From the NCBI GenBank assembly GCA_026396255.1, contig JAPLXD010000006.1, positions 1 to 58,341 of the forward strand: a stretch of 58,341 nucleotides of DNA, read 5' to 3'. A model generated the notes under the pieces. The model saw nothing but the letters and a program-made list of their open reading frames with translations. It was not told where the DNA came from and did not search any database. The position numbers were made by a program, and so were the translations under genes. Origin of the DNA: Candidatus Moraniibacteriota bacterium. GTDB taxonomy: Bacteria; Patescibacteriota; Minisyncoccia; Moranbacterales; UBA11712. Below, piece after piece: positions 542-54,307 of this stretch; position 1 is the stretch's first letter, and the number at the start of each line of letters is the position of its first letter.

Positions 542-1984
542 TTAGATTTCACGATTTTGACTTTCACGAAACTCCCCACGCACCAATTCCGACGCGTTAT
601 GATGCGGGGCAATGCCGACGGGGATTTTTTTATTGGAGTGAAAAATGACTTTCTTTTGGGTGCGGGTGTGGGCGAGGTATTTTCCCATCCAAGGTTCGAC
701 CTTTCCCTTTCTCGCTGGCGCTCGAAATTCCTCAAGGTCGAACCTTTTGTCAACTAGAACTTCAACGACTTTGCCGATATATTTTTTGTTATTTTCCAGC
801 GCGGTTTTGGAGAGAATGTCCGTAAGCATTTTATCGCGTCTTTCTTTTTCTTTCTTGGAAACATTGTCTTTCATTTTCCAGGCAAGGGTTTGCGGGCGGG
901 GGGAGTATTGGGCGATATAGGCCATATCAAATTTCATCTCGCGAAGAAGCTTGGCCGTGTTTTCAAACTGTTTTTTCGTTTCGCCCGGAAAACCGACGAT
1001 GATATCGGTGGAGATACAAGGTTCAACCTTAGCTGTACAGCTAAGGTTGAACCTTTGAAAAGATCCACGGATTTTTTTGATTAGTCTTTTATAATGTTCA
1101 ATTGAATATTTGCGGTTCATCTTGCGAAGAATTTCGTTGTCTCCAGATTGAGCGGGCAGGGAGATATATTCACAGATTTTTTTGCTTTTGGCGATTATTT
1201 CAATCAGATCGTCAGACATATCTTTCGGGTGCGAGGTGAGAAAAGAGAGCCAGAATTTTCCGGGGATTTTTTCGATGAGGCGGAGAAGTTTTGGAAAATT
1301 TATTTTTTTTTCGCTCCCTCGCCTTGATAAGGAGAGGGTTGGGGTGAGGTTTTTATAGCTGTTCACGTTTTGTCCAAGCAATATAATTTCTTTGCATCCC
1401 TTTTTCACCAAGCTTTTTACTTCTTTCAGGATGTCATCAGCGGGGCGGGAATATTCGCGACCTCTCGCAAAGGGAACGACGCAATAGGCGCAGAAGTTAT
1501 TGCAGCCGGTCATGATTGGTATATATGCTGTGTATGAGTTTGTATATTTGAGTGTTATGTCTAGATAATCAAAGCACTCTCCCTTTACTAAAGGGAGAGT
1601 CGAAGAGAGATTTTTTCTATTGAATTGCTTATTCAAAATCCCCCTTAGTCCCCCTTTAAGAAAGGGGGAGACCGCTTGTGGGAAACTCTTAATTTCGCAA
1701 AACAGATCTACTTTTCCTTTGAGCCTTCGCTGGACGTCTTTTCTATGGGAGAGGCAGCCGGTCAAGACAATTTTTTTATCCAGATATTTTTTCTTTATAT
1801 TATTGATCTGTCCATAAACGCGGTCTTCGGCGGATTGGCGGACGCCGCAAGTGACGAATACGATTAAATTAGCCTCGTCAATTGAAGAGGCTAATTTTAA
1901 TTTATATTTTTCGAGATAAGTGGCGATTCTTTCGGCGTCAGACTGGTTCATTTGACAACCGAAGACTTTGACGAAATATTTCAT
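542..1984 (-). CDS. miaB: MiaB-family tRNA methylthiotransferase (radical SAM), carrying several in-frame inserts
   Basis: N-terminal UPF0004 block VFGCQMNQSDAE..VTCGVRQSAEDR, radical-SAM CNNFCAYCVVP, and a TRAM-like C-terminus. 480 aa. Confidence 0.85.
   Translation of the reverse strand: MKYFVKVFGCQMNQSDAERIATYLEKYKLKLASSIDEANLIVFVTCGVRQSAEDRVYGQINNIKKKYLDKKIVLTGCLSHRKDVQRRLKGKVDLFCEIKSFPQAVSPFLKGGLRGILNKQFNRKNLSSTLPLVKGECFDYLDITLKYTNSYTAYIPIMTGCNNFCAYCVVPFARGREYSRPADDILKEVKSLVKKGCKEIILLGQNVNSYKNLTPTLSLSRRGSEKKINFPKLLRLIEKIPGKFWLSFLTSHPKDMSDDLIEIIAKSKKICEYISLPAQSGDNEILRKMNRKYSIEHYKRLIKKIRGSFQRFNLSCTAKVEPCISTDIIVGFPGETKKQFENTAKLLREMKFDMAYIAQYSPRPQTLAWKMKDNVSKKEKERRDKMLTDILSKTALENNKKYIGKVVEVLVDKRFDLEEFRAPARKGKVEPWMGKYLAHTRTQKKVIFHSNKKIPVGIAPHHNASELVRGEFRESQNREI
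691..746. repeat. 56-bp element with inverted termini AAGGTTCGACCTT/AAGGTCGAACCTT (copy 1, inside miaB)
   Basis: The ends match the copy at 49976-50031 (19 and 20 nt identical) around a 17-nt divergent core. Translated in miaB as FDLEEFRAPARKGKVEPW. Confidence 0.8.
1018..1055. repeat. perfect 38-bp palindrome inside miaB
   Basis: AAGGTTCAACCTTAGCTGT/ACAGCTAAGGTTGAACCTT. Both strands encode FNLSCTAKVEP. Confidence 0.9.
1316..1338. repeat. short interrupted hairpin inside miaB
   Basis: CCCTC-G-CCTT-GAT-AAGG-A-GAGGG, lying in the LSLSRRGSE insert. Confidence 0.5.
1576..1600. repeat. 25-bp palindrome inside miaB
   Basis: ACTCTCCCTTTA-C-TAAAGGGAGAGT. Translated as STLPLVKGE. Confidence 0.8.
1635..1670. 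repeat. C5T3/A3G5 hairpin element inside miaB (antisense to the gene)
   Basis: AAAATCCCCCTTAGTCCCCCTTTAAGAAAGGGGGAG is 33/36 identical to uvrA 50481-50516. Confidence 0.85.
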
Positions 1985-3780
1985 TTTTTATCCTCAATTT
2001 CTTTCTGGATCTTTTCCAAAAACTTCTCAACCTTTATTGCGCCGAGATCGCCTTTTTCGCGGTCGCGAACGGCGACGGATTTGGCTTTCATTTCTTTCTC
2101 GCCGATGATGAGCATATAATTCACTTTCTGGTTCTGGGCGGTGCGGATTCTTTTTCCGAGGGATTCGCCGGTTTTGTTCATCGCGACACGAATATTTTTT
2201 TCTTGGAGTTTTTTCAAAATTTCTTTTCCGAATTTTTCAAACTTTTCCGAAACGGGAATGACTTCAACTTGAACAGGGGAGAGCCAAAGCGGGAAATGGC
2301 CGGCGGTTTGTTCAACTAAAAAGGCGAAAAATCGGTCGAATGATCCCATAATCGCCTTATGGATAATAACCGGCCTTTCTTTCTTTCCTTTTTCGTTTGT
2401 GAACTCGAGATTAAATCGTTCAGGCATATAGAAATCCATTTGAACAGTTGCGATTGAATCTTCTTTTCCGTGGACATTTTTGATTTGAACGTCAATTTTC
2501 GGTCCATAGAAAGCTGCTTCGCCGGCAACTTCTTCGAATTTTACTCCCGATTTTTTCAGGGCTGCGCGGGCAATTCGTGCCGATTCCTCCCAGAGCTTTC
2601 TGTTTTTTATGTCACCATATTTTTCCTTATCATTGAAATCGGGGAGTGATAGTCGAAACCAATAGCCTGTAATGTTGAAATCTTCGTAAACTTTTTTGAA
2701 TAAGCTTAAAACTTTTTCAAGCTCGCTCTGGCTTTGTTCATGCGAGCAATAAATATGAGAGTCATTTTGGGAAAAGCAGCGTGCCCGAATAAGTCCGGTG
2801 AGGACGCCCGATCTTTCAAAGCGATGCAGGAGACTGAAATCAGAATAGCGGACTGGCAAATCGCGATAGCTTTTCGAATCATTGCGAAACATAATGTGAT
2901 GATGGGGGCAATTCATTGGTTTCAAATAATATCTTTCTCCCTCAATATCAATTGGGTTATACATATCATCCTTGTAGTGTGCCAAGTGGCCGGATTTTTT
3001 GTAAAGATTTTCATGCGCGAGAACGGGCGTGTATACAAAATCATAGCCGTTTTGTTTTTCCAATTCGTACATATAATCCTCGAGCTTTTTCCGAATATAA
3101 GCGCCGTTGGGAAGCCAAAGTGGCAATCCTTTTCCCACTTCATCCGAAATCATAAATAGTTTCAGATCTTTCCCGAGTTTTCGATGATCTCTTTTTTCCG
3201 CTTCGGCCATCATGGCAAGATATTGCCGGAGTTCTTTGTCGGTTGCGAAAGCTACGCCATAGATGCGCTGGAGCATCTTGTTTTTTTCGTCGCCCTTCCA
3301 GTAGGCGCCGGAAATCTTGGTGAGCTTGAAAGCCTTCGGGCTTATTTCTCCGGTCGAATCGATGTGAGGACCAGCGCAAAGATCGACAAAATTGCCGGTT
3401 CGATAAATCGAAACAGTTTTTCCGCCAGAGGCGGATCCGCCTTTGGCGGATGCTCTACTACTTTCCTCTTTTGCGATATCTTTGATCAATTCGACCTTCA
3501 GCGGCTGCGCGGCTTTTTTGAAATCTTCCAAAGCTTCGGCAATCGGCAGATTGGCTTTTTCAAATTTGAAATTGGCCTTGATGATGCTCTGCATTTTTTC
3601 TTCGAGGATCGCGAGATCTTCAGGAATCAGTGTACGCGGGAGGTCAAAGTCATAATAGAATCCGTTTTCGATGGCCGGTCCGATGCCAAAGCGGGCGTCG
3701 GGGAACATTTCAAAAACGGCTGCGGCCAGGACGTGGGAGAGGGAGTGCCGAAGAAGCTCTGTTTTTGGTTGTTTTTGCAT
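1981..3780 (-). CDS. thrS: threonyl-tRNA synthetase, short form without the N-terminal TGS domain
   Basis: 599 aa. Starts at the SAD-like block LLRHSLSHVLAAA, with class II core (YLKPMNCPHH, FSLLHRFERSG) and an anticodon-binding C-terminus. Its stop overlaps the miaB start by 4 nt (ATGA). Confidence 0.93.
   Translation of the reverse strand: MQKQPKTELLRHSLSHVLAAAVFEMFPDARFGIGPAIENGFYYDFDLPRTLIPEDLAILEEKMQSIIKANFKFEKANLPIAEALEDFKKAAQPLKVELIKDIAKEESSRASAKGGSASGGKTVSIYRTGNFVDLCAGPHIDSTGEISPKAFKLTKISGAYWKGDEKNKMLQRIYGVAFATDKELRQYLAMMAEAEKRDHRKLGKDLKLFMISDEVGKGLPLWLPNGAYIRKKLEDYMYELEKQNGYDFVYTPVLAHENLYKKSGHLAHYKDDMYNPIDIEGERYYLKPMNCPHHHIMFRNDSKSYRDLPVRYSDFSLLHRFERSGVLTGLIRARCFSQNDSHIYCSHEQSQSELEKVLSLFKKVYEDFNITGYWFRLSLPDFNDKEKYGDIKNRKLWEESARIARAALKKSGVKFEEVAGEAAFYGPKIDVQIKNVHGKEDSIATVQMDFYMPERFNLEFTNEKGKKERPVIIHKAIMGSFDRFFAFLVEQTAGHFPLWLSPVQVEVIPVSEKFEKFGKEILKKLQEKNIRVAMNKTGESLGKRIRTAQNQKVNYMLIIGEKEMKAKSVAVRDREKGDLGAIKVEKFLEKIQKEIEDKK
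3421..3450. repeat. 30-bp near-perfect palindrome in frame in thrS
   Basis: TCCGCCAGAGGCGGATCCGCCTTTGGCGGA, encoding part of SAKGGSASGG. A second copy lies at 13741-13770. Confidence 0.85.
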
Positions 3781-5867: not shown

Positions 5868-5884
5868 GATTCAACCGGGGTTGA

Positions 5885-5953
5885 CCCCCACACCAATTTT
5901 CGTCACTATTTATTTGAATTCCTATATATTACAAATAGAATTGGTGTAGGGGG
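5885..5953. repeat. CCCC[AG]CACCAATT inverted-repeat element (copy 1)
   Basis: CCCCCACACCAATT ... AATTGGTGTAGGGGG with a ~40-nt AT-rich loop. It abuts the rplY promoter -35. Confidence 0.75.
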
Positions 5954-5982
5954 TTGACGAAAAAAGTTTTTTTTGTTAGATT
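5954..5982 (+). promoter_or_regulatory. sigma70-like promoter for rplY
   Basis: TTGACG-N17-TAGATT, 27 nt upstream of the ATG. Confidence 0.55.
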
Positions 5983-9201: not shown

Positions 9202-10479
9202 ATGAAAGGTTATATTTCGAAAATAACAATATATTTTTGTTTGCTTGTTTTGTTTTTGGCGTCCGATGTATCTTTGGCTGCCCAGAATGATGCCCAGCAG
9301 CAGGATTTGAAAATGAAAATAAATATTCTGCGGAACCAGATCCAGGAATATCAAAAAGAAATTGATGTCAAAAATAACCAAGCAGAAACTCTTCAGGGCG
9401 ATATCGACGCTATCGAAAAAGACATTGCAAAAATAAAGCTTGAAATGCAGGAGACTCAGTTGGTGATCCAAGGCCTTGATCTTGAGATCGCGGACAAAGA
9501 AGCGGGCATAGCCGCGATGCAGAAAGAGGTGGAGGCCAAAAAGAAAGTCCTCGCGCAATTTATGCAGGAATTGTATGAAAACGGCAATGCTACGTCCGTG
9601 GAATTGGCCCTGGGAAACAATACTTTTTCAGACTACTTTTTTCAGGCGGACAGCCTCGAATCATTTGAGGAGAGGACGAGGGAGATATATGACCGGTTCG
9701 TTTTTCTTCGTGAAGGTATCCAGAAAGAAAAGGATGATCTACTCTCTCAAAAAGAAGAACAGATGAATCTCAGAGCGATGCAAAACGACCAGCAAAATAC
9801 TTTGGATTCGCAAGAGCAGGCAAAAAATTCTCTTTTGGGCAAAACAAAGAATGACAAGCAGGCGCTTTCGGATCAGATGGGAAAATTGCAAGATCAGCTG
9901 AACGCTTTGCAGGCGCTCGGTGAGCCGATCAATATTGATGAAGCAATCAGCGCCGCCAAATATGCATCCGGTTTCACGCATGTTGCGCCGGAATTTTTGC
10001 TCGGCGTCTTGCGCGTCGAATCGGGACTTGGAACGAATGTCGGGGGAGGGAGATATAAAACTGACATGAATCCGGCCCAGTGGGACACTTTCAAAAAAAT
10101 TTGCGGTGAACTCGGAGTTGATCCGAACAGCGTGCCGGTGTCGCGCCGGGCTTGCTACAATTCAAATTCGAAGGACGGATGCGGGGGATGGGGAGGAGCG
10201 ATGGGGCCGGGACAATTCATGCCGACCACCTGGCTCGGATACAAAAGCAAGGTGGAAAAACTCACAGGGAATAGTCCGGCGAACCCGTGGGATCTCAAGG
10301 ACTCCCTTGTCGCGATGGGTCTCAAGCTGGTGGCGGTGAACGGCGTGACGGCGGGCGACCGGTCGGCTTGGGCGAAAGCGGCGGCGATGTATCTCGCGGG
10401 CGGCAACTGGGAAAACTATTCGTGGTATTCGGATCGGGTGTTGTCTTATGCCGACGGATTCAAAAAAATAATGAAATAA
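9202..10479 (+). CDS. secreted coiled-coil protein with C-terminal SLT_2-type lytic transglycosylase domain
   Basis: Signal/anchor sequence, a ~200-aa Q/E/K-rich coiled coil, then ESGLG...GAMGPGQFMPTTW. Confidence 0.75.
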   Translation: MKGYISKITIYFCLLVLFLASDVSLAAQNDAQQQDLKMKINILRNQIQEYQKEIDVKNNQAETLQGDIDAIEKDIAKIKLEMQETQLVIQGLDLEIADKEAGIAAMQKEVEAKKKVLAQFMQELYENGNATSVELALGNNTFSDYFFQADSLESFEERTREIYDRFVFLREGIQKEKDDLLSQKEEQMNLRAMQNDQQNTLDSQEQAKNSLLGKTKNDKQALSDQMGKLQDQLNALQALGEPINIDEAISAAKYASGFTHVAPEFLLGVLRVESGLGTNVGGGRYKTDMNPAQWDTFKKICGELGVDPNSVPVSRRACYNSNSKDGCGGWGGAMGPGQFMPTTWLGYKSKVEKLTGNSPANPWDLKDSLVAMGLKLVAVNGVTAGDRSAWAKAAAMYLAGGNWENYSWYSDRVLSYADGFKKIMK

Positions 10480-10480
10480 A

Positions 10481-10558
10481 TCCCCGCACTAAATTTTAGC
10501 AAAACTATTTTATTATAATGGTCATAATTGCCTTCGGGTATTGAATTTAGTGCGGAGA
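10481..10558. repeat. CCCCGCAC-type inverted-repeat element (copy 2)
   Basis: TCCCCGCACTAAATT ... AATTTAGTGCGGA, starting 2 nt after the stop codon. Confidence 0.7.
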
Positions 10559-12122: not shown

Positions 12123-12385
12123 TTTTTAATAAATGTGATGTAAAAGAAAAACGAAAATCAAAAATCAAAAAGTTCCTTAAAAAAACAAAATAAAAAAATT
12201 GGGTGATCTAAACACCAAAAAAGTGTTTTATCAAAAAAGTAAGTGTCCTTTCTTTTTGTCCTTCGGGGCAGTCTGGCAAACCATCCGCCTGAGTTTTTTC
12301 AAAAAACTTGGGCGGATTTTGTTTACCCTGTTAAATAATTTCGCAAGACGAAATTACTGTCTCGCAGTATTTAACAGGGTGAAGG

Positions 12386-27742: not shown

Positions 27743-27842
27743 CCCCGCACCAATTTTTTTCGCAATATTCATCTTGTTCAAACTTAAATATATTTTTCTG
27801 TATTTATGTCTACATGATGTTGCGATGAGAATTTGTGCGGGG
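27743..27842. repeat. CCCCGCACCAATT inverted-repeat element (copy 3)
   Basis: CCCCGCACCAATT ... AATTTGTGCGGGG followed by CAAGC. It ends 12 nt before the greA ATG. Confidence 0.7.
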
Positions 27843-28426: not shown

Positions 28427-29902
28427 ATGCTTGACGAAATAAAGGAAATAAAACTGAAAAAACTGGAAAATCTGCGAAAAGCGGGTCTTGATCCGTATCC
28501 GGAAAAAACCAGCCGGACGATGGTGAACAAAGAAGCGTTGGAAAAATTTGATGAATTGCAGAGCAAAGAAATAATCTTGGTTGGAAGAGTGAAGTCTCTC
28601 CGTCCGATGGGCGGGTCGGCTTTTGCCCACATTGAGAATGAATCAGGGAAAATCCAGATTTTTTTGAGCAAAAAAAACATTGATCCGGAAAAATATAAGC
28701 TTTTTGTCGATTCGATCGAGCTTGGCGATTTTGTCGAGGTCAAGGGGAAATTATTCAAGACCAAAACGGAAGAAATCACCCTTGAAGTGTCGGATTGGAA
28801 AATATTGAGCAAAAGTCTGGCACCCGTGCCGACGGAACATTTTGGGGTGAAAGATACGGAAGAACTTCTGCGCCGGCGCTATCTGGATCTCATGATGAAT
28901 TCCGAAACGCGCGAGCTTTTCCGCAAGAAAAACATTTTTTGGCAAACAGCCCGAACTTTTCTCGCTAAAAAAGGCTTTTTGGAAGTGCAGACTCCCGTTC
29001 TTGAAAATATTCCCGGCGGAGCCGAAGCGGAGCCGTTCGTCACGCATCACAACGCGCTTGATCGCGACTATTTCATGCGCATTTCGCTGGAATTGCCGCT
29101 CAAAAGGCTGCTGGTCGGCGGATACGAAAGAGTCTTCGAGATCGGCCGGGTTTTTCGCAACGAGGGCATTGACAGAGAGCATTTGCAGGAATATGACACG
29201 CTCGAATATTATGAAGCCTATGCGGATCTGAAAAAGGGGATGAAGCTGGTTGAAAAATTGTTCAAGGAAATTGTGAGGAATATCTTGGAGATCGAATCTC
29301 CAAGGGGAGATTCGATCTCCCTTGCAACGGAATACGAGGGAAACAAAATCAATTGGGGAGAAAAATGGGAAACAAAAGACTATTTCAAGCTTCTCAAGCA
29401 AGAGACGGGAATCGATCTCGATAAAGAAATTTCTGTCGCCGATCTCCAGAAGAAAGCGGACGAGTTGGGGATCAAATATGAAAAAAACTATGGCAAGGGG
29501 CGGATGATCGATACGATATACAAAAAAACCGTGCGGCCGAAATTGATCCAACCTTGTTTTTTGGTCGGCCATCCGGTCGAAGTATCGCCGCTGGCCAAAA
29601 AAGATCCCAAAGACCCCCGAAAAGTTTTGCGCCTTCAGGTAATTGCCTGCGCCTCGGAGCTTGGAAACGGTTTTGCGGAGCTGAACGACCCGGTTGACCA
29701 GCGCGCCAGATTTTCCGACCAAATGAAACTTCGCGCCGAAGGGGACACAGAAGCGCAAATGCTCGATGAAGATTTTGTCGAAGCGCTTGAATATGGCATG
29801 CCTCCAGCGTTTGGTTTCGGCTTTTCGGAAAGATTGTTTGCGCTTTTGATGAACAAATCGGTGCGAGAAACAGTCATCTTCCCGCCGATGAAAGAGAAAT
29901 AA
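28427..29902 (+). CDS. lysS: lysyl-tRNA synthetase, class II
   Basis: OB-fold N-domain, RVFRNEGIDREHLQEYDTLEYYEAY, and GFGFSERL. Confidence 0.95.
   Translation: MLDEIKEIKLKKLENLRKAGLDPYPEKTSRTMVNKEALEKFDELQSKEIILVGRVKSLRPMGGSAFAHIENESGKIQIFLSKKNIDPEKYKLFVDSIELGDFVEVKGKLFKTKTEEITLEVSDWKILSKSLAPVPTEHFGVKDTEELLRRRYLDLMMNSETRELFRKKNIFWQTARTFLAKKGFLEVQTPVLENIPGGAEAEPFVTHHNALDRDYFMRISLELPLKRLLVGGYERVFEIGRVFRNEGIDREHLQEYDTLEYYEAYADLKKGMKLVEKLFKEIVRNILEIESPRGDSISLATEYEGNKINWGEKWETKDYFKLLKQETGIDLDKEISVADLQKKADELGIKYEKNYGKGRMIDTIYKKTVRPKLIQPCFLVGHPVEVSPLAKKDPKDPRKVLRLQVIACASELGNGFAELNDPVDQRARFSDQMKLRAEGDTEAQMLDEDFVEALEYGMPPAFGFGFSERLFALLMNKSVRETVIFPPMKEK
29287..29320. repeat. twin-palindrome element in frame in lysS
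   Basis: GGAGATCGAATCTCC-aagg-GGAGATTCGATCTCC. Translated as EIESPRGDSIS. Confidence 0.9.
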
Positions 29903-31422: not shown

Positions 31423-32614
31423 GAAAATCAATCTTTCACCAATAAAAGAAATGGAACTCCGGGCATCGCGCATTCCCGGAGTTGTTTCGCTCGCCCAAGG
31501 CGTGCCGTCTTTTGACACGCCCGAGCCGATCAAGCGGGCGGCCATCGAGGCAATCGAGAAGGGAAAAGTGGCCAAATATTCACTCTCACCCGGCCTTCTG
31601 GAGTTACGCGAGGTGATCGCGCACAATCTTGAAAAAGAAAACAAGTTTTATGACTTTGAAGAAGAAGTTATCGTGACGGCCGGGTCGATCGAAGCGATCA
31701 CGGCGACGATGCTGGCAATTCTTTCTCCGGGAGATGAAGTTTTGATTCCCGATCCGACATATACATCCTATCAGCCGGCTATCAAGGTGGCGGGTGGGGT
31801 GCCGGTCTTTGTCCCGCTGGATGAAAAGAAGCACTGGGCGTTTGATATTGCGGAATTGGAAAAAAGAATCACTCCAAAAACGAAAGCCCTGCTTTTTTGC
31901 AATCCGAACAATCCGACGGGGACGATTTTCACGCGCAATCAGCTTCACGCGGTGGCGCAGCTCGCGATCAAGCACAATTTCTATATTCTGAGCGATGAAG
32001 TTTACAAAGATTTTGTTTTTGAGGAAAATGGAGGTTCGACCTCCACGGGGAGGTCGAACCTCCAACGTTTGTACTCCCTCGCCCAGATGCGCGGGATTCG
32101 GGACAGATTGATCTATATCTTCTCTTTTTCCAAAGCCTACGCGATGACGGGCTGGCGGATTGCGTATCTTGCAACTCATCACGATCTCGCGAAGAAGATC
32201 CTCGGCGTGCACGACGCGCTGGTCACGTGCGCTCCCGTAGTCTCACAGTATGCAGCTCTTGCGGCTCTCGAAATGGCGGACGAGGAACTGGCGAAATATC
32301 ACGCGATATATAAAAACAGGCGGGATCTGATCTGCCGGCGGCTCGATAAGCTGAAAAATATATTTGAATATCAAAAACCGGACAGTGCCTATTTCGTTTT
32401 TCCGCGCATCAAAGAAGATATTTTGCAAAAAATCACTCCAAGTGGCGGTTCAAAGGAATTTGCGATAGAATTGCTGGAGAAGGCCAAAGTGGCGACGGTT
32501 CCCGGATCAGCCTTCGGTCCGGTCGGGGAGAATCATATCCGGATGTGTTTTGGGCGCAGTGAAGAGGATATCAACTTGGCGTTTGATCGGATGGAAAAAT
32601 TTTTCTCAAAATAA
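31415..32614 (+). CDS. class I/II PLP-dependent aminotransferase (aspartate-aminotransferase-like)
   Basis: NPNNPTG and SFSKAYAMTGWRIAY (PLP lysine). Overlaps the serS stop by 8 nt. Confidence 0.88.
   Translation: MDKKINLSPIKEMELRASRIPGVVSLAQGVPSFDTPEPIKRAAIEAIEKGKVAKYSLSPGLLELREVIAHNLEKENKFYDFEEEVIVTAGSIEAITATMLAILSPGDEVLIPDPTYTSYQPAIKVAGGVPVFVPLDEKKHWAFDIAELEKRITPKTKALLFCNPNNPTGTIFTRNQLHAVAQLAIKHNFYILSDEVYKDFVFEENGGSTSTGRSNLQRLYSLAQMRGIRDRLIYIFSFSKAYAMTGWRIAYLATHHDLAKKILGVHDALVTCAPVVSQYAALAALEMADEELAKYHAIYKNRRDLICRRLDKLKNIFEYQKPDSAYFVFPRIKEDILQKITPSGGSKEFAIELLEKAKVATVPGSAFGPVGENHIRMCFGRSEEDINLAFDRMEKFFSK
32030..32063. repeat. twin-palindrome element in frame in the aminotransferase gene
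   Basis: GGAGGTTCGACCTCC-acgg-GGAGGTCGAACCTCC. Translated as GGSTSTGRSNLQ. Confidence 0.9.
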
Positions 32615-36055: not shown

Positions 36056-36173
36056 AGATTTTTGTTTATTTTTTATTTATCTCAAGAGTGCTTACGCCCA
36101 CATTATACAACAACCAAGAAAAGTTATCCACAAGATACTATTGCACTAGTTTTTGTGGTATAATTTCAGTACA

Positions 36174-36253
36174 CCCCCACACCAATTCTAATTATGAATC
36201 AGATTTTTTCAATTATTCAACGAAGAAGATGATAACTGGAATTGGTGTGGGGG
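36174..36253. repeat. CCCCCACACCAATTC inverted-repeat element (copy 4, perfect 15-bp arms)
   Basis: CCCCCACACCAATTC-N50-GAATTGGTGTGGGGG. An extended -10-like TGGTATAAT at 36156-36164 lies just upstream. Confidence 0.8.
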
Positions 36254-44358: not shown

Positions 44359-45564
44359 TTATTTCAGTCTCCCAATTATCTTATTTTTCTCACTATATCC
44401 AATTTTCATCTTGGACGCAAGCGTTTGCATAGTGGCAATTGTTTGGTCATATGTCGGGCGATCGACGGGGTAGGGGATGAAATCTTTTCCGCCGTGGGCG
44501 AAGGAATAACGGGCCGGATCTTCATAGGAAGCTTTCGCGCCGTAAATAACTTCCGCTGTCAGCGCCAAAGCTCTGATGGTCTTTGGCCCGACGCCTTTCA
44601 AAGATAAAAGCTGTTCATAATTTTTCGGCTTGACTACATTCACTTCGTATAATATTTTTTCCAAATACTTGCTTTTGGTGAAATCCTCCGTGATGACGGG
44701 CAACACCTTGAAATCGCGGTCATGCAGGTGTATTTTGGTGAGTTCTTGATTCTCGTTTCCAACCGAGATCACTTCGCTTTGAGCTGTTGAGTGGTCGCGC
44801 AGAATGGAGATCGGATCTCCATCGGGGAGATCCGATCTCCGAGGAGTCGCGTATTTGCTCAATAATGCTAGATCTTTCATGAGAGTATTATAGCTTCCTT
44901 GAACGAGCTCTGTGCTGATTTTTTGGGTGTTTTCGCTTTCTCTGGCGGTCATATTGAGCCCGGTGTGCTGGCCGTCCGAAATAATCCCGCTGTGCGGTTC
45001 AATCACTAGGTTCTTTACTTCGTCCGAGAACCAGTGATAGCGTCGCGCCGTCACCTCTTTTTCGTTCATGCCTTGTTGAACGACGGCCCACGTGCCGTTG
45101 CGTGAGAAAAAGAAGCAGTGATGATAAATCTGGAACCCGTCCTGGACGAGGGAAGAATCGACTTTCGCCGCCATCCGGGAATTGTATTCGAGCGAATTTA
45201 TTTTTTCCTGCGAGAGTTCGGCTCGCGCGCCGAAGAGTGAAATTTGCTCCGGAGTTTTGAGCGACGCTTTGCCTTTCCCGCCACAAATATATATTCCCAA
45301 ATCTCTTTCCTCGCCGCGGATAGCCTCTTTCAAAGCCGCGGTTAAAATAGTGATGAGTCCCGACGCGTTCCAGTCAAAAGCGAGCACCGTTCCGAGCGCC
45401 TGAAACCAGACCGGATCGGCGATCCGTTTCACAAACTCATCCGGCCCATATTCGGCAATGATGACCCGTGACATCTCCCGTCCCAGTTTCACCATCCGTT
45501 CGAACAGCCATTTGGGGCACTTGCCATAGTCAAGAGTGAAGGTGGCAATTCCGCGCTTGAACAT
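44359..45564 (-). CDS. DUF763-family protein with helix-hairpin-helix-like C-terminal motif
   Basis: N-terminus GKCPKWLFERMVKLG...DPVWFQALGTVLAFDWNASG is typical of DUF763 as I recall it. LLSLKGVGPKTIRALAL is HhH-like. Confidence 0.7.
   Translation of the reverse strand: MFKRGIATFTLDYGKCPKWLFERMVKLGREMSRVIIAEYGPDEFVKRIADPVWFQALGTVLAFDWNASGLITILTAALKEAIRGEERDLGIYICGGKGKASLKTPEQISLFGARAELSQEKINSLEYNSRMAAKVDSSLVQDGFQIYHHCFFFSRNGTWAVVQQGMNEKEVTARRYHWFSDEVKNLVIEPHSGIISDGQHTGLNMTARESENTQKISTELVQGSYNTLMKDLALLSKYATPRRSDLPDGDPISILRDHSTAQSEVISVGNENQELTKIHLHDRDFKVLPVITEDFTKSKYLEKILYEVNVVKPKNYEQLLSLKGVGPKTIRALALTAEVIYGAKASYEDPARYSFAHGGKDFIPYPVDRPTYDQTIATMQTLASKMKIGYSEKNKIIGRLK
44816..44850. repeat. twin-palindrome element in frame in the DUF763 gene
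   Basis: GGAGATCGGATCTCC-atcgg-GGAGATCCGATCTCC. Translated on the minus strand as RRSDLPDGDPIS. Confidence 0.9.
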
Positions 45565-49730: not shown

Positions 49731-49838
49731 AATTTTCCCAGAGACTTGTTCTCTGGTGGGGCATTCCTGGTTGGGATGCCTCTTTTTTTATAACAACTGA
49801 AATTGATTTATTAACTCAATAGTATTATATTGAAGAAA

Positions 49839-49920
49839 CCCCCGCACCGAAATAGGTCGGTGTGTATAAGTGCCAATTTGGGGTAAGTTTTTGTATTTGC
49901 GAAATAAATTTGGTGCGGGG
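49839..49920. repeat. CCCCGCACC inverted-repeat element (copy 5)
   Basis: CCCCGCACCGAAAT ... AATTTGGTGCGGGG followed by CAAGC. TTGATT-N17-TATATT (49803-49831) lies directly upstream. Confidence 0.7.
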
Positions 49921-49975
49921 CAAGCCTTAAATGGGGCATTTTTGTGTTAGGTAAAGAATCATTCAGGGAAAATCA

Positions 49976-53023: not shown

Positions 53024-54307
53024 ATGAATTACGATTTAAGAATTAAGAATAAAATATTCAACCTTCCCAAATCTCCCGGCGTGTACGAATTTCGTGATAA
53101 ACAAGGGAAAATTCTTTATATCGGGAAAGCGACATCGCTCAAGGATCGGGTAGGGAGTTATTTTCGCTCCCAAAGTTCAACTTTAGGAGCGCCTAAAGTT
53201 GAACTTTTAGTGTCCCAAATCGCCGACATCAAAATTCATGAAACGGATTCGGTGCTGGAAGCTTTGATCTTGGAATCCAATCTCATCAAAAAGCACCAGC
53301 CGAAATATAATGTGATGGCGAAAGACGACAAGAGTTTCGGCTATTTCGTGATCACCCGCGCACCAAAGCACAGCTTGGTGCGGGGCAAGGCTTCAGAAGA
53401 ATTTCCGCGAGTTGTTATTCTGAGAAAAACAAACTTAGGAACTGTATCGGCAAAAAGAATTTATGGTCCGTATTTATCAAAGCGACAGATGGAGATCGCA
53501 TTAAAAATAATTCGTAAAATATTTCCCTTTCACTCCATCAAAGCCAAAACGGAAAAGGGTTGTCTTGATTTCCAGATCGGGCGGTGTCCGGGACCGTACG
53601 CGGATGCGATCAGCAAAAAAGACTATCTTAAAAATATCCACGGGATAGAGATGATTTTACAGGGGAAAAAGAAAGGCTTGCTCACCGAGCTCAAAAAACA
53701 GATGAGAACATATTCAAAGAATAGCGAATTTGAAAAGGCGGCCGAAGCGCGGAATCGGATCTTCGCGCTTGAGCATATTCGGGACGTGGCGTTGATATCA
53801 AAAGATATGGCTGGAGATTCGATCTCCACAAGGGAGATCGAATCTCCATTACGTATCGAAGCGTATGATATTTCAAACATCGGCGGAGATTTTGCCGTAG
53901 GCTCCATGGCAGTCTTTAAAAACAACCATCCGAACAAGAGCCAGTACCGGAAATTCAAGATAAAAAACGTGTCCGGAGTTGATGATGTGGCAATGATGCG
54001 CGAAATGCTGCGACGGCGTTTCCAAAACGATTGGCCTTTGCCGGATATCATTTTTGTCGATGGGGGAAAGGGACATCTCAATATGGCGGAGAATGTCGTC
54101 AGCGAGTTCGGCCATAATATCCCCGTTGTCGGCGTCGCCAAAGGGCCGACGCGCAAAAAACTGGATATGTATCACGGCAAAGAAGCTTTGATTTTCCAAA
54201 ACATCATCAGCGATGAAAAATTGGTCGAAAGAATTCGCAACGAAGCCCACCGCTTTGCGATCAGCTATCACAAGAAACTACGGAGAAAAAATTGGAAAGA
54301 CAAATAA
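53024..54307 (+). CDS. uvrC: excinuclease ABC subunit C, short form lacking the C-terminal (HhH)2 domain
   Basis: GIY-YIG (GVYEFRDKQGKILYIGKA), UVR (EFEKAAEARNRIFALEHI), and endonuclease-domain block IEAYDISNIGG. 427 aa. Confidence 0.85.
   Translation: MNYDLRIKNKIFNLPKSPGVYEFRDKQGKILYIGKATSLKDRVGSYFRSQSSTLGAPKVELLVSQIADIKIHETDSVLEALILESNLIKKHQPKYNVMAKDDKSFGYFVITRAPKHSLVRGKASEEFPRVVILRKTNLGTVSAKRIYGPYLSKRQMEIALKIIRKIFPFHSIKAKTEKGCLDFQIGRCPGPYADAISKKDYLKNIHGIEMILQGKKKGLLTELKKQMRTYSKNSEFEKAAEARNRIFALEHIRDVALISKDMAGDSISTREIESPLRIEAYDISNIGGDFAVGSMAVFKNNHPNKSQYRKFKIKNVSGVDDVAMMREMLRRRFQNDWPLPDIIFVDGGKGHLNMAENVVSEFGHNIPVVGVAKGPTRKKLDMYHGKEALIFQNIISDEKLVERIRNEAHRFAISYHKKLRRKNWKDK
53172..53207. repeat. 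36-bp palindrome in frame in uvrC
   Basis: AAAGTTCAACTTTAGG-agcg-CCTAAAGTTGAACTTT. Confidence 0.9.
53355..53385. repeat. miniature CCCGCGCACCAA/TTGGTGCGGGG inverted repeat in frame in uvrC
   Basis: It shares the right arm plus flank TTGGTGCGGGGCAAG with the intergenic CCCCGCACC elements. Confidence 0.7.
53813..53847. repeat. twin-palindrome element in frame in uvrC
   Basis: GGAGATTCGATCTCC-acaag-GGAGATCGAATCTCC. Translated as GDSISTREIESP. Confidence 0.9.

What the first reader, a model, noticed from the sequence alone, without database searches (positions are those of the whole stretch)
5885..5953. Family of 70-100-bp elements bounded by CCCC(A/G)CACCAATT inverted repeats, one miniaturised inside uvrC
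Five intergenic copies occur at 5885-5953, 10481-10558, 27743-27842, 36174-36253 (perfect 15-bp arms) and 49839-49920. Their arms are CCCC[AG]CAC[CT]AA(A)TT / AATT(T)GGTG[CT]GGGG, with AT-rich interiors of about 40-75 nt that do not resemble each other. A short version lies in frame in uvrC (53355-53385). Three copies (27842, 49920, 53385) share the 3' flank GGTGCGGGGCAAG. At two copies a promoter-like sequence ends 7-10 nt upstream of the left arm: TGGTATAAT at 36156-36164, and TTGATT-N17-TATATT at 49803-49831. In those cases the stem would form the 5' end of the transcript. The elements could be MITE-like DNA, 5' stabilising stem-loops, or a small-RNA family.
Basis: seen in the sequence. Interest (0 to 1): 0.6.

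Follow-up and report, generated by a model that had tools for sequence, protein, structure and literature searches.

The report
Hairpin mini-elements tied to GIY-YIG nuclease
These 30-100-bp repeats are gene-less copies of a tiny hairpin-ended selfish DNA element whose 291-bp full form carries only a small GIY-YIG nuclease gene. The element has spread through this ultra-small bacterium's genome, including essential genes and tRNA genes, and does not look like a family of regulatory RNAs.

Summary
The arm motif occurs 13 times in the window against 2.2 expected, as six convergent pairs.

- **Copies genome-wide.** The 0.93-Mb genome (CPR/Moranbacteria-like) has about 44 copies.
- **Where they sit.** Eight lie in frame in protein genes: DnaE, TopA (two copies), SecA, a Nuo51-like gene, a RibD_C gene, UvrC and a 942-aa ORF. 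Two lie inside the tmRNA and RNase P RNA genes.
- **tRNA carriers.** Five enclose a whole tRNA gene. For two I showed they sit inside a resident tRNA gene with the same anticodon.
- **Nuclease carrier.** One 291-bp copy encloses only an 84-aa GIY-YIG nuclease ORF. Eleven of its 13 best homologues elsewhere are bracketed by arms of this family.
- **Relatives.** Four congeners have 3, 0, 0 and 1 copies. Their sites at the rplY promoter, the greA leader, TopA and UvrC are empty.
- **RNA evidence.** There is no Rfam match, no conserved interior and no strand logic.

My reading: these are non-autonomous hairpin elements (MITE/RPE-like) of a GIY-YIG-associated family. The closest published system is the Ssn nuclease with SRM repeats. 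How they move is not shown.

This scan found the same kind of element earlier on other DNA.

The parts
5886..5952 (.). ORF-less copy, A-type arms (CCCCACACCAATT / AATTGGTGTAGGGG). It is inserted at the -35 box of the rplY (L25) promoter.
   Evidence: Four congeners and other genera have a single GGTTGACG-17-TAGATT promoter and no element.
5880..5885 (.). Left copy of the GTTGAC direct repeat (apparent target-site duplication).
   Evidence: Empty sites read GGGTTGACGAAAA. G000 reads GGGGTTGAC[element]GTTGACGAAAA.
5953..5958 (.). Right copy of the GTTGAC direct repeat. It doubles as part of the -35 box (TTGACG, 5954-5959) of the intact rplY promoter; the -10 box TAGATT is at 5977-5982.
10481..10558 (.). 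ORF-less copy, G-type arms with one mismatch. It starts 2 nt after the stop of ORF 9202-10479 and is flanked by ATAAAT on both sides.
27743..27842 (.). ORF-less copy, G-type, 100 bp. It lies between the conserved greA promoter and the greA start codon (27855), and the right end carries the CAAG extension.
   Evidence: It is absent at this site in G001-G004, G006 and G009. G005 has an unrelated copy at the same leader.
36174..36253 (.). ORF-less copy, A-type, with the best arms. It lies 10 nt downstream of TGGTATAAT (36156-36164) and upstream of the 1064-aa ORF.
   Evidence: The congeners hold almost no exact-arm copies anywhere, so it is taken as absent there; this site was not aligned directly.
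49839..49920 (.). ORF-less copy, G-type. It lies 7-8 nt after the conserved uvrA promoter (TTGATT-17-TATATT, 49803-49831). Its interior holds a diverged second copy of the host leader hairpin CCTTAAATGGGGCATTTTTGTG.
   Evidence: The site is filled in G006, G009 and G005, and empty in congeners G002 and G003 and in G008.
53355..53385 (+). Miniature copy (12-13-bp arms, 5-nt loop) translated in frame inside uvrC.
   Evidence: G000 has a net 12-codon insertion against five relatives.

Best explanation
The six window copies are gene-less members of a family of very small hairpin-ended DNA elements.

**Anatomy.** An element is a 13-21-bp stem enclosing a loop that can hold almost anything. The stem core is (C/T)CCC-N-CACC-A-(A/C). 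The N is free to vary but stays complementary between the two arms. The loop holds nothing much in the 26-31-bp minis, 35-75 nt of AT-rich unstructured sequence in most copies, a whole tRNA gene in five copies, and in the presumed parent form a single 84-aa single-domain GIY-YIG nuclease ORF that starts 0-5 nt after one arm and ends in or next to the other.

**Shown here.**
- The family and its arms.
- The nuclease-carrying form, and its recurrence in other genomes.
- Insertion polymorphism against close relatives.
- In-frame copies in genes, and copies inside RNA genes.
- A strong copy-number excess in this genome.

**Inferred.**
- The nuclease recognises the arms folded as a hairpin in single-stranded DNA, as the published Ssn GIY-YIG nucleases recognise their SRM hairpins.
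- Cleavage at the foot of the hairpin, followed by host repair or recombination, spreads the elements and keeps the two arms matched.
- Copies survive only where the host tolerates them: between genes, as extra surface loops in proteins, on helices of structural RNAs, or in tRNA genes when the insert carries a working replacement.
For: 1. **Nuclease-carrying form.** C54:205-495 is 291 bp: 21-bp perfect arms around an 84-aa GIY-YIG ORF.
2. **Recurrence.** Eleven of the 13 best homologues, in 10 other genomes, are bracketed by 14-21-bp perfect inverted repeats of the same family. Arm sequence tracks protein similarity: T-type arms at 83-88% identity, C-type at 55-61%, A- and G-types at 44-48%. 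Two more cases lie in other CPR contigs.
3. **Matching short copies.** Eight ORF-less G000 copies share the parent's arm for 15-16 nt, TCCCTCACCACTT(T/C)....
4. **Empty sites.** The rplY promoter has a GTTGAC direct repeat around the element. TopA sites 1 and 2, UvrC and the greA leader are also empty in relatives.
5. **Copy number.** G000 has about 29 exact-core pairs against 3, 0, 0 and 1 in four congeners. The five relatives with six or more copies by the pattern are G005, G010, G012, G020 and G058. G010, G012 and G020 each hold a GIY-YIG gene bracketed by arms with the CCCC-N-CACC core. G005's bracketed gene has diverged arms (TCGCCACACCATTC), and G058 was not examined.
6. **In-frame copies.** DnaE, TopA (two), SecA, Nuo51-like, RibD_C, UvrC and a 942-aa ORF. 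Copies also lie inside the tmRNA and RNase P RNA genes.
7. **tRNA carriers.** Removing the Ser(cga) and Pro(tgg) copies restores a second, different tRNA with the same anticodon.
8. **Other candidates excluded.** The seven Y1/RAYT-like genes of G000 are flanked by other palindromes and never by this arm motif. No DDE_Tnp_1 match was found.
9. **Concerted arms.** At an orthologous copy (G000 C8:3712 and G001 C11:8105) the flanks are 85% identical and the interior about 80%, yet both arms changed together at two positions.
10. **Published precedent.** Single-domain GIY-YIG Ssn nucleases cut ssDNA next to hairpin repeats that flank their own genes (PMC11893778).
Against: - No transposition event, excision product or enzyme activity was observed.
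- Interiors of different copies are unrelated. Simple copy-and-paste of a master element does not explain that.
- All five intergenic window copies are A- or G-type, while the only nuclease-carrying copy assembled in G000 is T-type.
- A direct-repeat signal in the flanks is clear for A-type copies (z about 7). It is absent for G-type copies.
- GIY-YIG nucleases hydrolyse DNA and are not known to rejoin it.
- In four to five Planctomycetota genomes that hold about 80-bp elements with the same arms, the eight GIY-YIG genes I examined are flanked by other repeats.
- Some sites are shared with other genera but not with congeners: TopA site 2 and the uvrA leader. That needs either repeated clean loss or lateral transfer of alleles, and I found no recombination tract.
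Confidence: 0.68

Rival explanations
1. Host-serving nuclease recognition sites. Here the arms are not primarily selfish. They would be genome-wide marks for a domesticated Ssn-like ssDNA nuclease that shapes natural transformation or recombination, as NTS and SsnA do in Neisseria. The elements would persist because the host benefits.
For: The nearest published system works this way. Arms stay complementary in place while interiors drift. A CPR paper title (PMC10187176) reports natural competence in Saccharibacteria. The arm core is shared across many CPR classes.
Against: Four congeners do without them. Copies sit inside essential genes and tRNA genes, where a mark has no obvious use. There is no clustering around particular genes in the window. 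Nothing here tests transformation.
Confidence: 0.14
2. Ordinary MITEs mobilised in trans by a conventional transposase (DDE or Y1/RAYT). The GIY-YIG gene would be just another passenger, like the tRNAs.
For: The elements have terminal inverted repeats. There is a GTTGAC direct repeat at the rplY site. A-type flanks carry a direct-repeat excess across genomes. G000 has seven Y1-like genes.
Against: No arm pair more than 300 bp apart encloses a transposase in G000. There is no DDE_Tnp_1 match. The Y1-like genes are flanked by other palindromes and lack the arm motif. The GIY-YIG ORF recurs between these arms in at least 10 genomes with a fixed geometry, which is unlike a random passenger.
Confidence: 0.1
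3. Functional RNA stems. These would be 5' stabilisers, RNase III processing stems around tRNAs, or a small-RNA family.
For: The greA and uvrA copies lie between a conserved -10 box and the start codon. Arms abut the carried tRNAs within 0-20 nt, so the pre-tRNA would have a closing stem. The arms show compensatory changes.
Against: There is no Rfam match at E<=1. Interiors are unconserved and unstructured, with mean z -0.6. The rplY copy lies upstream of its promoter. Only 5 of 43 tRNAs are enclosed. Copies occur in coding frames on either strand. My hand count of arm mismatches (sequences) showed no preference for G-U pairs on the transcribed strand. Congeners keep the same promoters and leaders without the element.
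Confidence: 0.06

Closest known systems
Ssn single-domain GIY-YIG ssDNA nucleases with SRM/NTS hairpin repeats (Chenal et al. 2025, PMC11893778)
   Same: Both have a nuclease of about 90 aa made only of a GIY-YIG domain. The gene is flanked on both sides by the repeat that is also scattered through the genome. The repeat works as a hairpin. The authors note that this layout looks like an insertion sequence.
   Different: Each NTS/SRM is a self-contained ~28-nt hairpin (ATTCCC-N8-GGGAAT core). Here the two arms pair with each other across the cargo. The sequences are unrelated. The best solved-structure match of our protein is UPF0213 BH0048, and I could not test membership of cd10448. In-frame, tRNA and RNA-gene insertions are not described for Ssn.
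Rickettsia palindromic elements (RPEs)
   Same: Both are short palindromic repeats inserted in frame in housekeeping protein genes and also in RNA genes, and are read through as extra peptide.
   Different: RPE copies share their whole sequence; here only the arms are shared. RPEs have no known associated enzyme (from my own knowledge). The sequences are unrelated and the phylum is different.
REPINs with RAYT (Y1) transposases
   Same: Both have two inverted arms forming a hairpin, a single small gene flanked by its own repeat, and arms that evolve together to keep pairing.
   Different: The enzyme here is GIY-YIG, not HUH/Y1. There is no GTAG or CGTC tag. The RAYT-like genes of this genome go with other palindromes.
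MITEs and mobile insertion cassettes (TIR elements without, or with passenger, genes)
   Same: Both have terminal inverted repeats and small size, include gene-less and cargo-carrying versions, and show insertion polymorphism. At least one copy here has a target duplication.
   Different: The interiors are unrelated between copies. The presumed parent is 291 bp and encodes no known transposase.
Non-intron insertions with GIY-YIG ORFs in CPR rRNA genes (PMC11270868)
   Same: That paper reports GIY-YIG ORFs in rRNA insertions that are neither group I nor group II introns and do not look like homing. In G005 and G023, a GIY-YIG unit with related arms has flanks that I read, by eye and from memory, as 16S rRNA (AGGCATGCAAGTCGA | GGCAAACGGGTTAGT); I ran no rRNA model on it.
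   Different: The paper's text holds no occurrence of 'inverted repeat' or 'palindrom', and the passages I read do not describe gene-less copies elsewhere in the genome.

Membership tests
MITE (non-autonomous TIR transposon) | Terminal inverted repeats, small size, no ORF | tested here: met
   Arms are 13-17 bp and elements 26-150 bp.
MITE (non-autonomous TIR transposon) | Target-site duplication | tested here: inconclusive
   GTTGAC is duplicated at the rplY site. A-type flanks have a direct-repeat excess: 3.04 against 2.22 matches of 6, z about 7. G-type flanks have none. The TopA and tRNA sites show 4 extra nt but no repeat.
MITE (non-autonomous TIR transposon) | Copies similar along their whole length, derived from a parent element encoding a transposase with the same ends | tested here: not met
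   Interiors are unrelated. The parent-like unit encodes a GIY-YIG nuclease. No DDE_Tnp_1 match was found.
Ssn / SRM system | Single-domain GIY-YIG protein of about 90 aa | tested here: met
   The protein is 84 aa. PF01541 covers residues 1-73 at 63 bits.
Ssn / SRM system | Protein belongs to the cd10448 clade | not testable with these tools
   No CDD library was on hand. The best PDB match is UPF0213 BH0048, E 8e-4. NCBIfam gave nothing over its cut-off.
Ssn / SRM system | Gene flanked on both sides by the genome's dispersed hairpin repeat | tested here: met
   C54 and 11 of 13 homologues are flanked this way. Here the two flanks are the two halves of one hairpin, not two hairpins.
Ssn / SRM system | Site-specific cleavage of ssDNA only, next to the hairpin | not testable with these tools
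   This needs a biochemical assay.
REPIN / RAYT | Y1 (HUH) transposase gene flanked by the repeat; GTAG or CGTC tag | tested here: not met
   Seven Y1-like ORFs are present, and none has the arm motif next to it. One chance GGTGAGGG lies about 300 bp beyond one ORF. Each is flanked by another palindrome. The arms start with CCCC.
Rickettsia palindromic elements | In-frame insertion in protein genes and insertion in RNA genes | tested here: met
   for protein genes. tmRNA and RNase P RNA are.
Rickettsia palindromic elements | Sequence homology to RPE families; whole-length similarity among copies | tested here: not met
   Copies share only their arms. No comparison with RPE sequences was run.
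Described RNA family (Rfam) | Match to a covariance model | tested here: not met
   At E<=1 the whole window gave only tRNA-Gln and a chance CrcZ hit elsewhere.
Inverton (invertible promoter) | Both orientations present in a population; nearby invertase | not testable with these tools

The most novel reading that the evidence does not exclude
The 291-bp unit (two 21-bp arms plus an 84-aa GIY-YIG nuclease) would be a self-contained mobile element, by far the smallest known, using a nuclease fold not known to act as a transposase. Its gene-less relatives would spread less by jumping than as site-specific insertion alleles. These alleles would pass between lineages by natural transformation and carry a 'spare part' (a tRNA or a leader hairpin) for whatever they interrupt. 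Nuclease-triggered repair would keep the two arms matched.
Probability: 0.3. Interest if true: 0.85.

Novelty: new variant of a known kind. Interest (0 to 1): 0.6.

Why it matters
If the small GIY-YIG protein really drives these hairpins, it adds a new enzyme class and a new lower size limit to bacterial mobile DNA. It would also extend the recently described Ssn nuclease/repeat systems into the ultra-small CPR bacteria.

The elements explain several odd features of these genomes:
- extra loops in essential proteins (DnaE, TopA, SecA, UvrC);
- enlarged tmRNA and RNase P RNA genes;
- split tRNA genes with a nested replacement;
- probably some of the non-intron insertions reported in CPR rRNA genes.

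For annotation, they warn against calling these stems sRNAs or leaders. They also flag tRNA and protein gene models that are interrupted or lengthened by an insert.

Tried and rejected
- **Known RNA family.** Rfam gave nothing at gathering score or at E<=1.
- **General tRNA-processing stem.** Only 5 of 43 tRNAs are enclosed. The tmRNA and RNase P RNA genes are not flanked by arms; each has a copy inside it.
- **G-U bias.** In a hand count of arm mismatches (sequences), transitions do not favour the transcribed strand: about 3 fit and 5 do not.
- **Long-hairpin interiors.** Interiors are not structured; mean z is -0.6 and 20% fall below -2.
- **Shared ancestry of interiors.** There are no BLAST hits. 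Ungapped identity of the seven 80-bp copies is 0.39 against 0.36 for the null, and only three T-type copies are weakly above chance.
- **Interiors as relics of the nuclease ORF.** Similarity to the parent stops after 15-16 nt.
- **Arms derived from a tRNA 3' end (CCCCGCACCA).** No G000 tRNA ends that way.
- **Mobilising enzymes.** RAYT or DDE transposase as the mobiliser.
- **Recombination tract at TopA site 2.** None seen.
- **Same arms around GIY-YIG genes in Planctomycetota.** Not found in eight genes.
- **rRNA flanks.** No 16S rRNA gene was found in this genome; 23S was not searched.
- **Literature.** I found no paper describing these elements.

Full report
**Observation**

The arm motif CCCCRCACYAA (up to 1 mismatch) occurs 13 times in the window against 2.16 expected, and none of 100 shuffles reaches that number. 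Twelve hits form six convergent pairs. Interiors are AT-rich (GC 0.22-0.36 against 0.45 for the genome) and have no significant similarity to each other. The shared GGTGCGGGGCAAG flank and both promoter-like sequences are present.

**The family in the genome**

The window lies in a 0.93-Mb, 96%-complete genome in 61 contigs. Earlier notes of this scan call it a Moranbacteria (CPR) genome, and named Moranbacteria MAGs carry the same elements.

A scan for arms that stay complementary for at least 12 nt finds about 44 copies, 26 to 291 bp long. Many are exactly 80, 78 or 66 bp.

The arm core is (C/T)CCC-N-CACC-A-(A/C). The N may be A, G, T or C but almost always matches between the two arms. Pairing continues for 2-8 further copy-specific bases. 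Interiors are not themselves folded (mean z -0.6).

**Where copies sit**
- Eight lie in frame in long ORFs: DNA polymerase III alpha, topoisomerase I (two copies), SecA, a Nuo51-like protein, a RibD_C protein, UvrC and a 942-aa ORF.
- One lies inside the tmRNA gene and one inside the RNase P RNA gene.
- The rest lie between genes.

**tRNA carriers**

Five copies enclose a complete tRNA gene: Ala-tgc, Leu-cag, Ser-cga, Pro-cgg and Pro-tgg. The other 38 tRNAs are not enclosed.

For Ser-cga and Pro-tgg, joining the flanks restores a second tRNA with the same anticodon but a different sequence. In both, the insert splits the outer gene in its T-loop. The other three have recognisable remnants of a host tRNA next to the arms, but I could not rebuild them cleanly. 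So in the two cases I could rebuild, the insert carries a working replacement for the gene it breaks.

**Insertion polymorphism**
- **rplY.** Four congeners and eight other relatives have a single GGTTGACG-17-TAGATT promoter. G000 has GGGGTTGAC[element]GTTGACG. GTTGAC is duplicated and the promoter remains intact downstream of the element.
- **TopA.** Two sites are filled or empty in a patchy way. Site 2 is filled in G000 and in four other genera with homologous interiors, and is empty in three congeners. Site 1 has long, short and arm-variant forms.
- **UvrC.** G000 alone has the 12-codon insert.
- **greA leader.** G000 alone has this copy. G005 has an unrelated copy at the same place.
- **uvrA leader.** The copy is shared with G006, G009 and G005 but not with congeners G002 and G003. 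Its interior contains a diverged duplicate of the host leader hairpin that follows it.
- **Copy numbers.** Exact-core copies number about 29 in G000 against 3, 0, 0 and 1 in the four congeners.

**The associated gene**

One copy, C54:205-495, is 291 bp. It has 21-bp perfect arms around an 84-aa ORF that is nothing but a GIY-YIG domain.

I searched 25 relatives with this protein. Eleven of the 13 best hits, in 10 genomes, are bracketed by 14-21-bp perfect inverted repeats of the same family. The start codon lies 0-5 nt after one arm and the stop lies in or beside the other. Arm sequence follows protein similarity. Two further cases turned up in contigs of other CPR classes.

Eight gene-less G000 copies share the parent's arm for 15-16 nt. 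The five relatives with six or more copies by the pattern are G005, G010, G012, G020 and G058. G010, G012 and G020 each hold an arm-bracketed GIY-YIG gene with the CCCC-N-CACC core. G005's has diverged arms (TCGCCACACCATTC), and G058 was not examined. Most low-copy genomes have no such gene, although G003 has the gene and no short copies.

G000 also has seven Y1/RAYT-like genes. Each is flanked by a different palindrome and none by this motif. No DDE_Tnp_1 match was found.

**How the arms evolve**

G000 C8:3712 and G001 C11:8105 are orthologous. Their flanks are 85% identical over 568 nt and their interiors about 80% identical. Yet both arms differ at the same two positions (A/CCAC against G/CCAA), and the outer flank changes from TGAA to CAAG. 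So the arms change together. Either pairing is selected or one arm is corrected against the other.

**Wider distribution**

The exact arm pattern occurs in many CPR classes. It also occurs in Planctomycetota, Omnitrophota and a few other MAGs. I estimate by hand that roughly 17 chance hits would be expected in that collection.

A-type copies have a TTTAC...GTAAA flank consensus and a per-copy direct-repeat excess (z about 7). G-type copies tend to carry CTTG...CAAG and no direct repeat. In the Planctomycetota genomes I checked, GIY-YIG genes are flanked by other repeats, some of them SRM-like. I therefore do not extend the nuclease link beyond CPR.

**Comparison with what is known**

The nearest published system is the Ssn family. 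These are ~94-aa single-domain GIY-YIG nucleases that cut only ssDNA next to hairpin repeats (NTS/SRM). The repeats flank the nuclease gene and are scattered in hundreds of copies. The authors remark that the layout resembles an insertion sequence (PMC11893778).

A 2024 survey of CPR rRNA insertions found GIY-YIG ORFs in non-intron insertions. Its text holds no occurrence of 'inverted repeat' or 'palindrom' (PMC11270868).

RPEs, REPIN/RAYT and MITEs each share some features and fail others; the membership table lists them. I found no paper describing this element. Earlier agents of this scan reported tiny GIY-YIG hairpin elements with gene-less copies in other Patescibacteria genomes several times. 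The kind is therefore not new to the scan.

**Limits**
- No movement, cleavage or transcript was observed.
- Unrelated interiors, the A- and G-type copies without a matching parent in this assembly, and sites shared across genera but not with congeners remain unexplained by a simple jump-and-copy model.

Noticed in passing
window 12322-12383; G000 C48:8287-8576; G004 locus L217:656-945: A second arm family (ACCCTGTTAAATA) shows the same split. A short gene-less copy sits in the window, and GIY-YIG-carrying ~290-bp copies sit in G000 and G004.
   Followed up: partly
G000 C9:25466-25866 and C12:28977-29373: Two more GIY-YIG ORFs are bracketed by nested inverted repeats (TTTGTCATCCC and GGGATCCAGGGT). 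These resemble the published SRM/NTS core (CGTCATTCCC...GGGAAT).
   Followed up: no
G000 C33:7137-7465, C15:36268-36581, C12:24299-24642: Three of the eight small GIY-YIG ORFs lie 42-50 nt upstream of a tRNA gene in the same orientation (Val-cac, Gln-ctg, Ser-gct). Next to tRNA-Val there is a short duplicate of its 5' end.
   Followed up: no
L206 (G005:C9) 1464-1773 and L207 (G023:C1) 1474-1785: A GIY-YIG unit with arms TCGCCACACCATTCAGCTTT has flanks that I read, by eye and from memory, as 16S rRNA (AGGCATGCAAGTCGA | GGCAAACGGGTTAGT). It occurs in two genomes of different families, and I ran no rRNA model on it.
   Followed up: no
G000 C12:9446-11395, C28:12516-13139, C40:6461-6967, C51:5168-5839, C53:15640-16341, C48:11353-11931: This 0.93-Mb genome has seven Y1/RAYT-like ORFs. 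Each is flanked by its own short palindrome (for example CCCAACATTGAATGTTGGG, ATCCTAACATTCAATGTTAGGAT, TTCGAGATACTATCTCGAA). These are candidate drivers of the other hairpin repeat families noted in this genome.
   Followed up: partly
window 3421-3450; near many G000 tRNAs (e.g. C31:17020-17060, C15:39650-39700): A recurrent hairpin CTGTCCGCC-NNNN-GGCGGA(AG) lies beside tRNA genes. One copy sits inside the dead outer tRNA-Pro(cgg) remnant and one inside the tRNA-Ala remnant.
   Followed up: no
window 49921-49950 and orthologous uvrA leaders: The uvrA leader carries a hairpin plus T-run, CC(C/T)TAAATGGGGCATTTTTGTGTTAGG, conserved in most of the genera compared, directly after the conserved promoter. 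It may be an attenuator or regulatory site.
   Followed up: no
G000 C37:9688-9800: Two elements and a mini hairpin (CCCCACACTCAAAAGGCGTGGGG) stand in tandem upstream of the split tRNA-Pro(tgg) gene, separated by TGAA.
   Followed up: no
window 691-746, 1018-1055, 29287-29320, 32029-32064, 44806-44840, 53172-53207, 53812-53848: Other perfect palindromes are common in coding regions of the window: GGAGATCGAATCTCC twins and AAGGTTCGACCTT types. Earlier notes of this scan already cover them.
   Followed up: no
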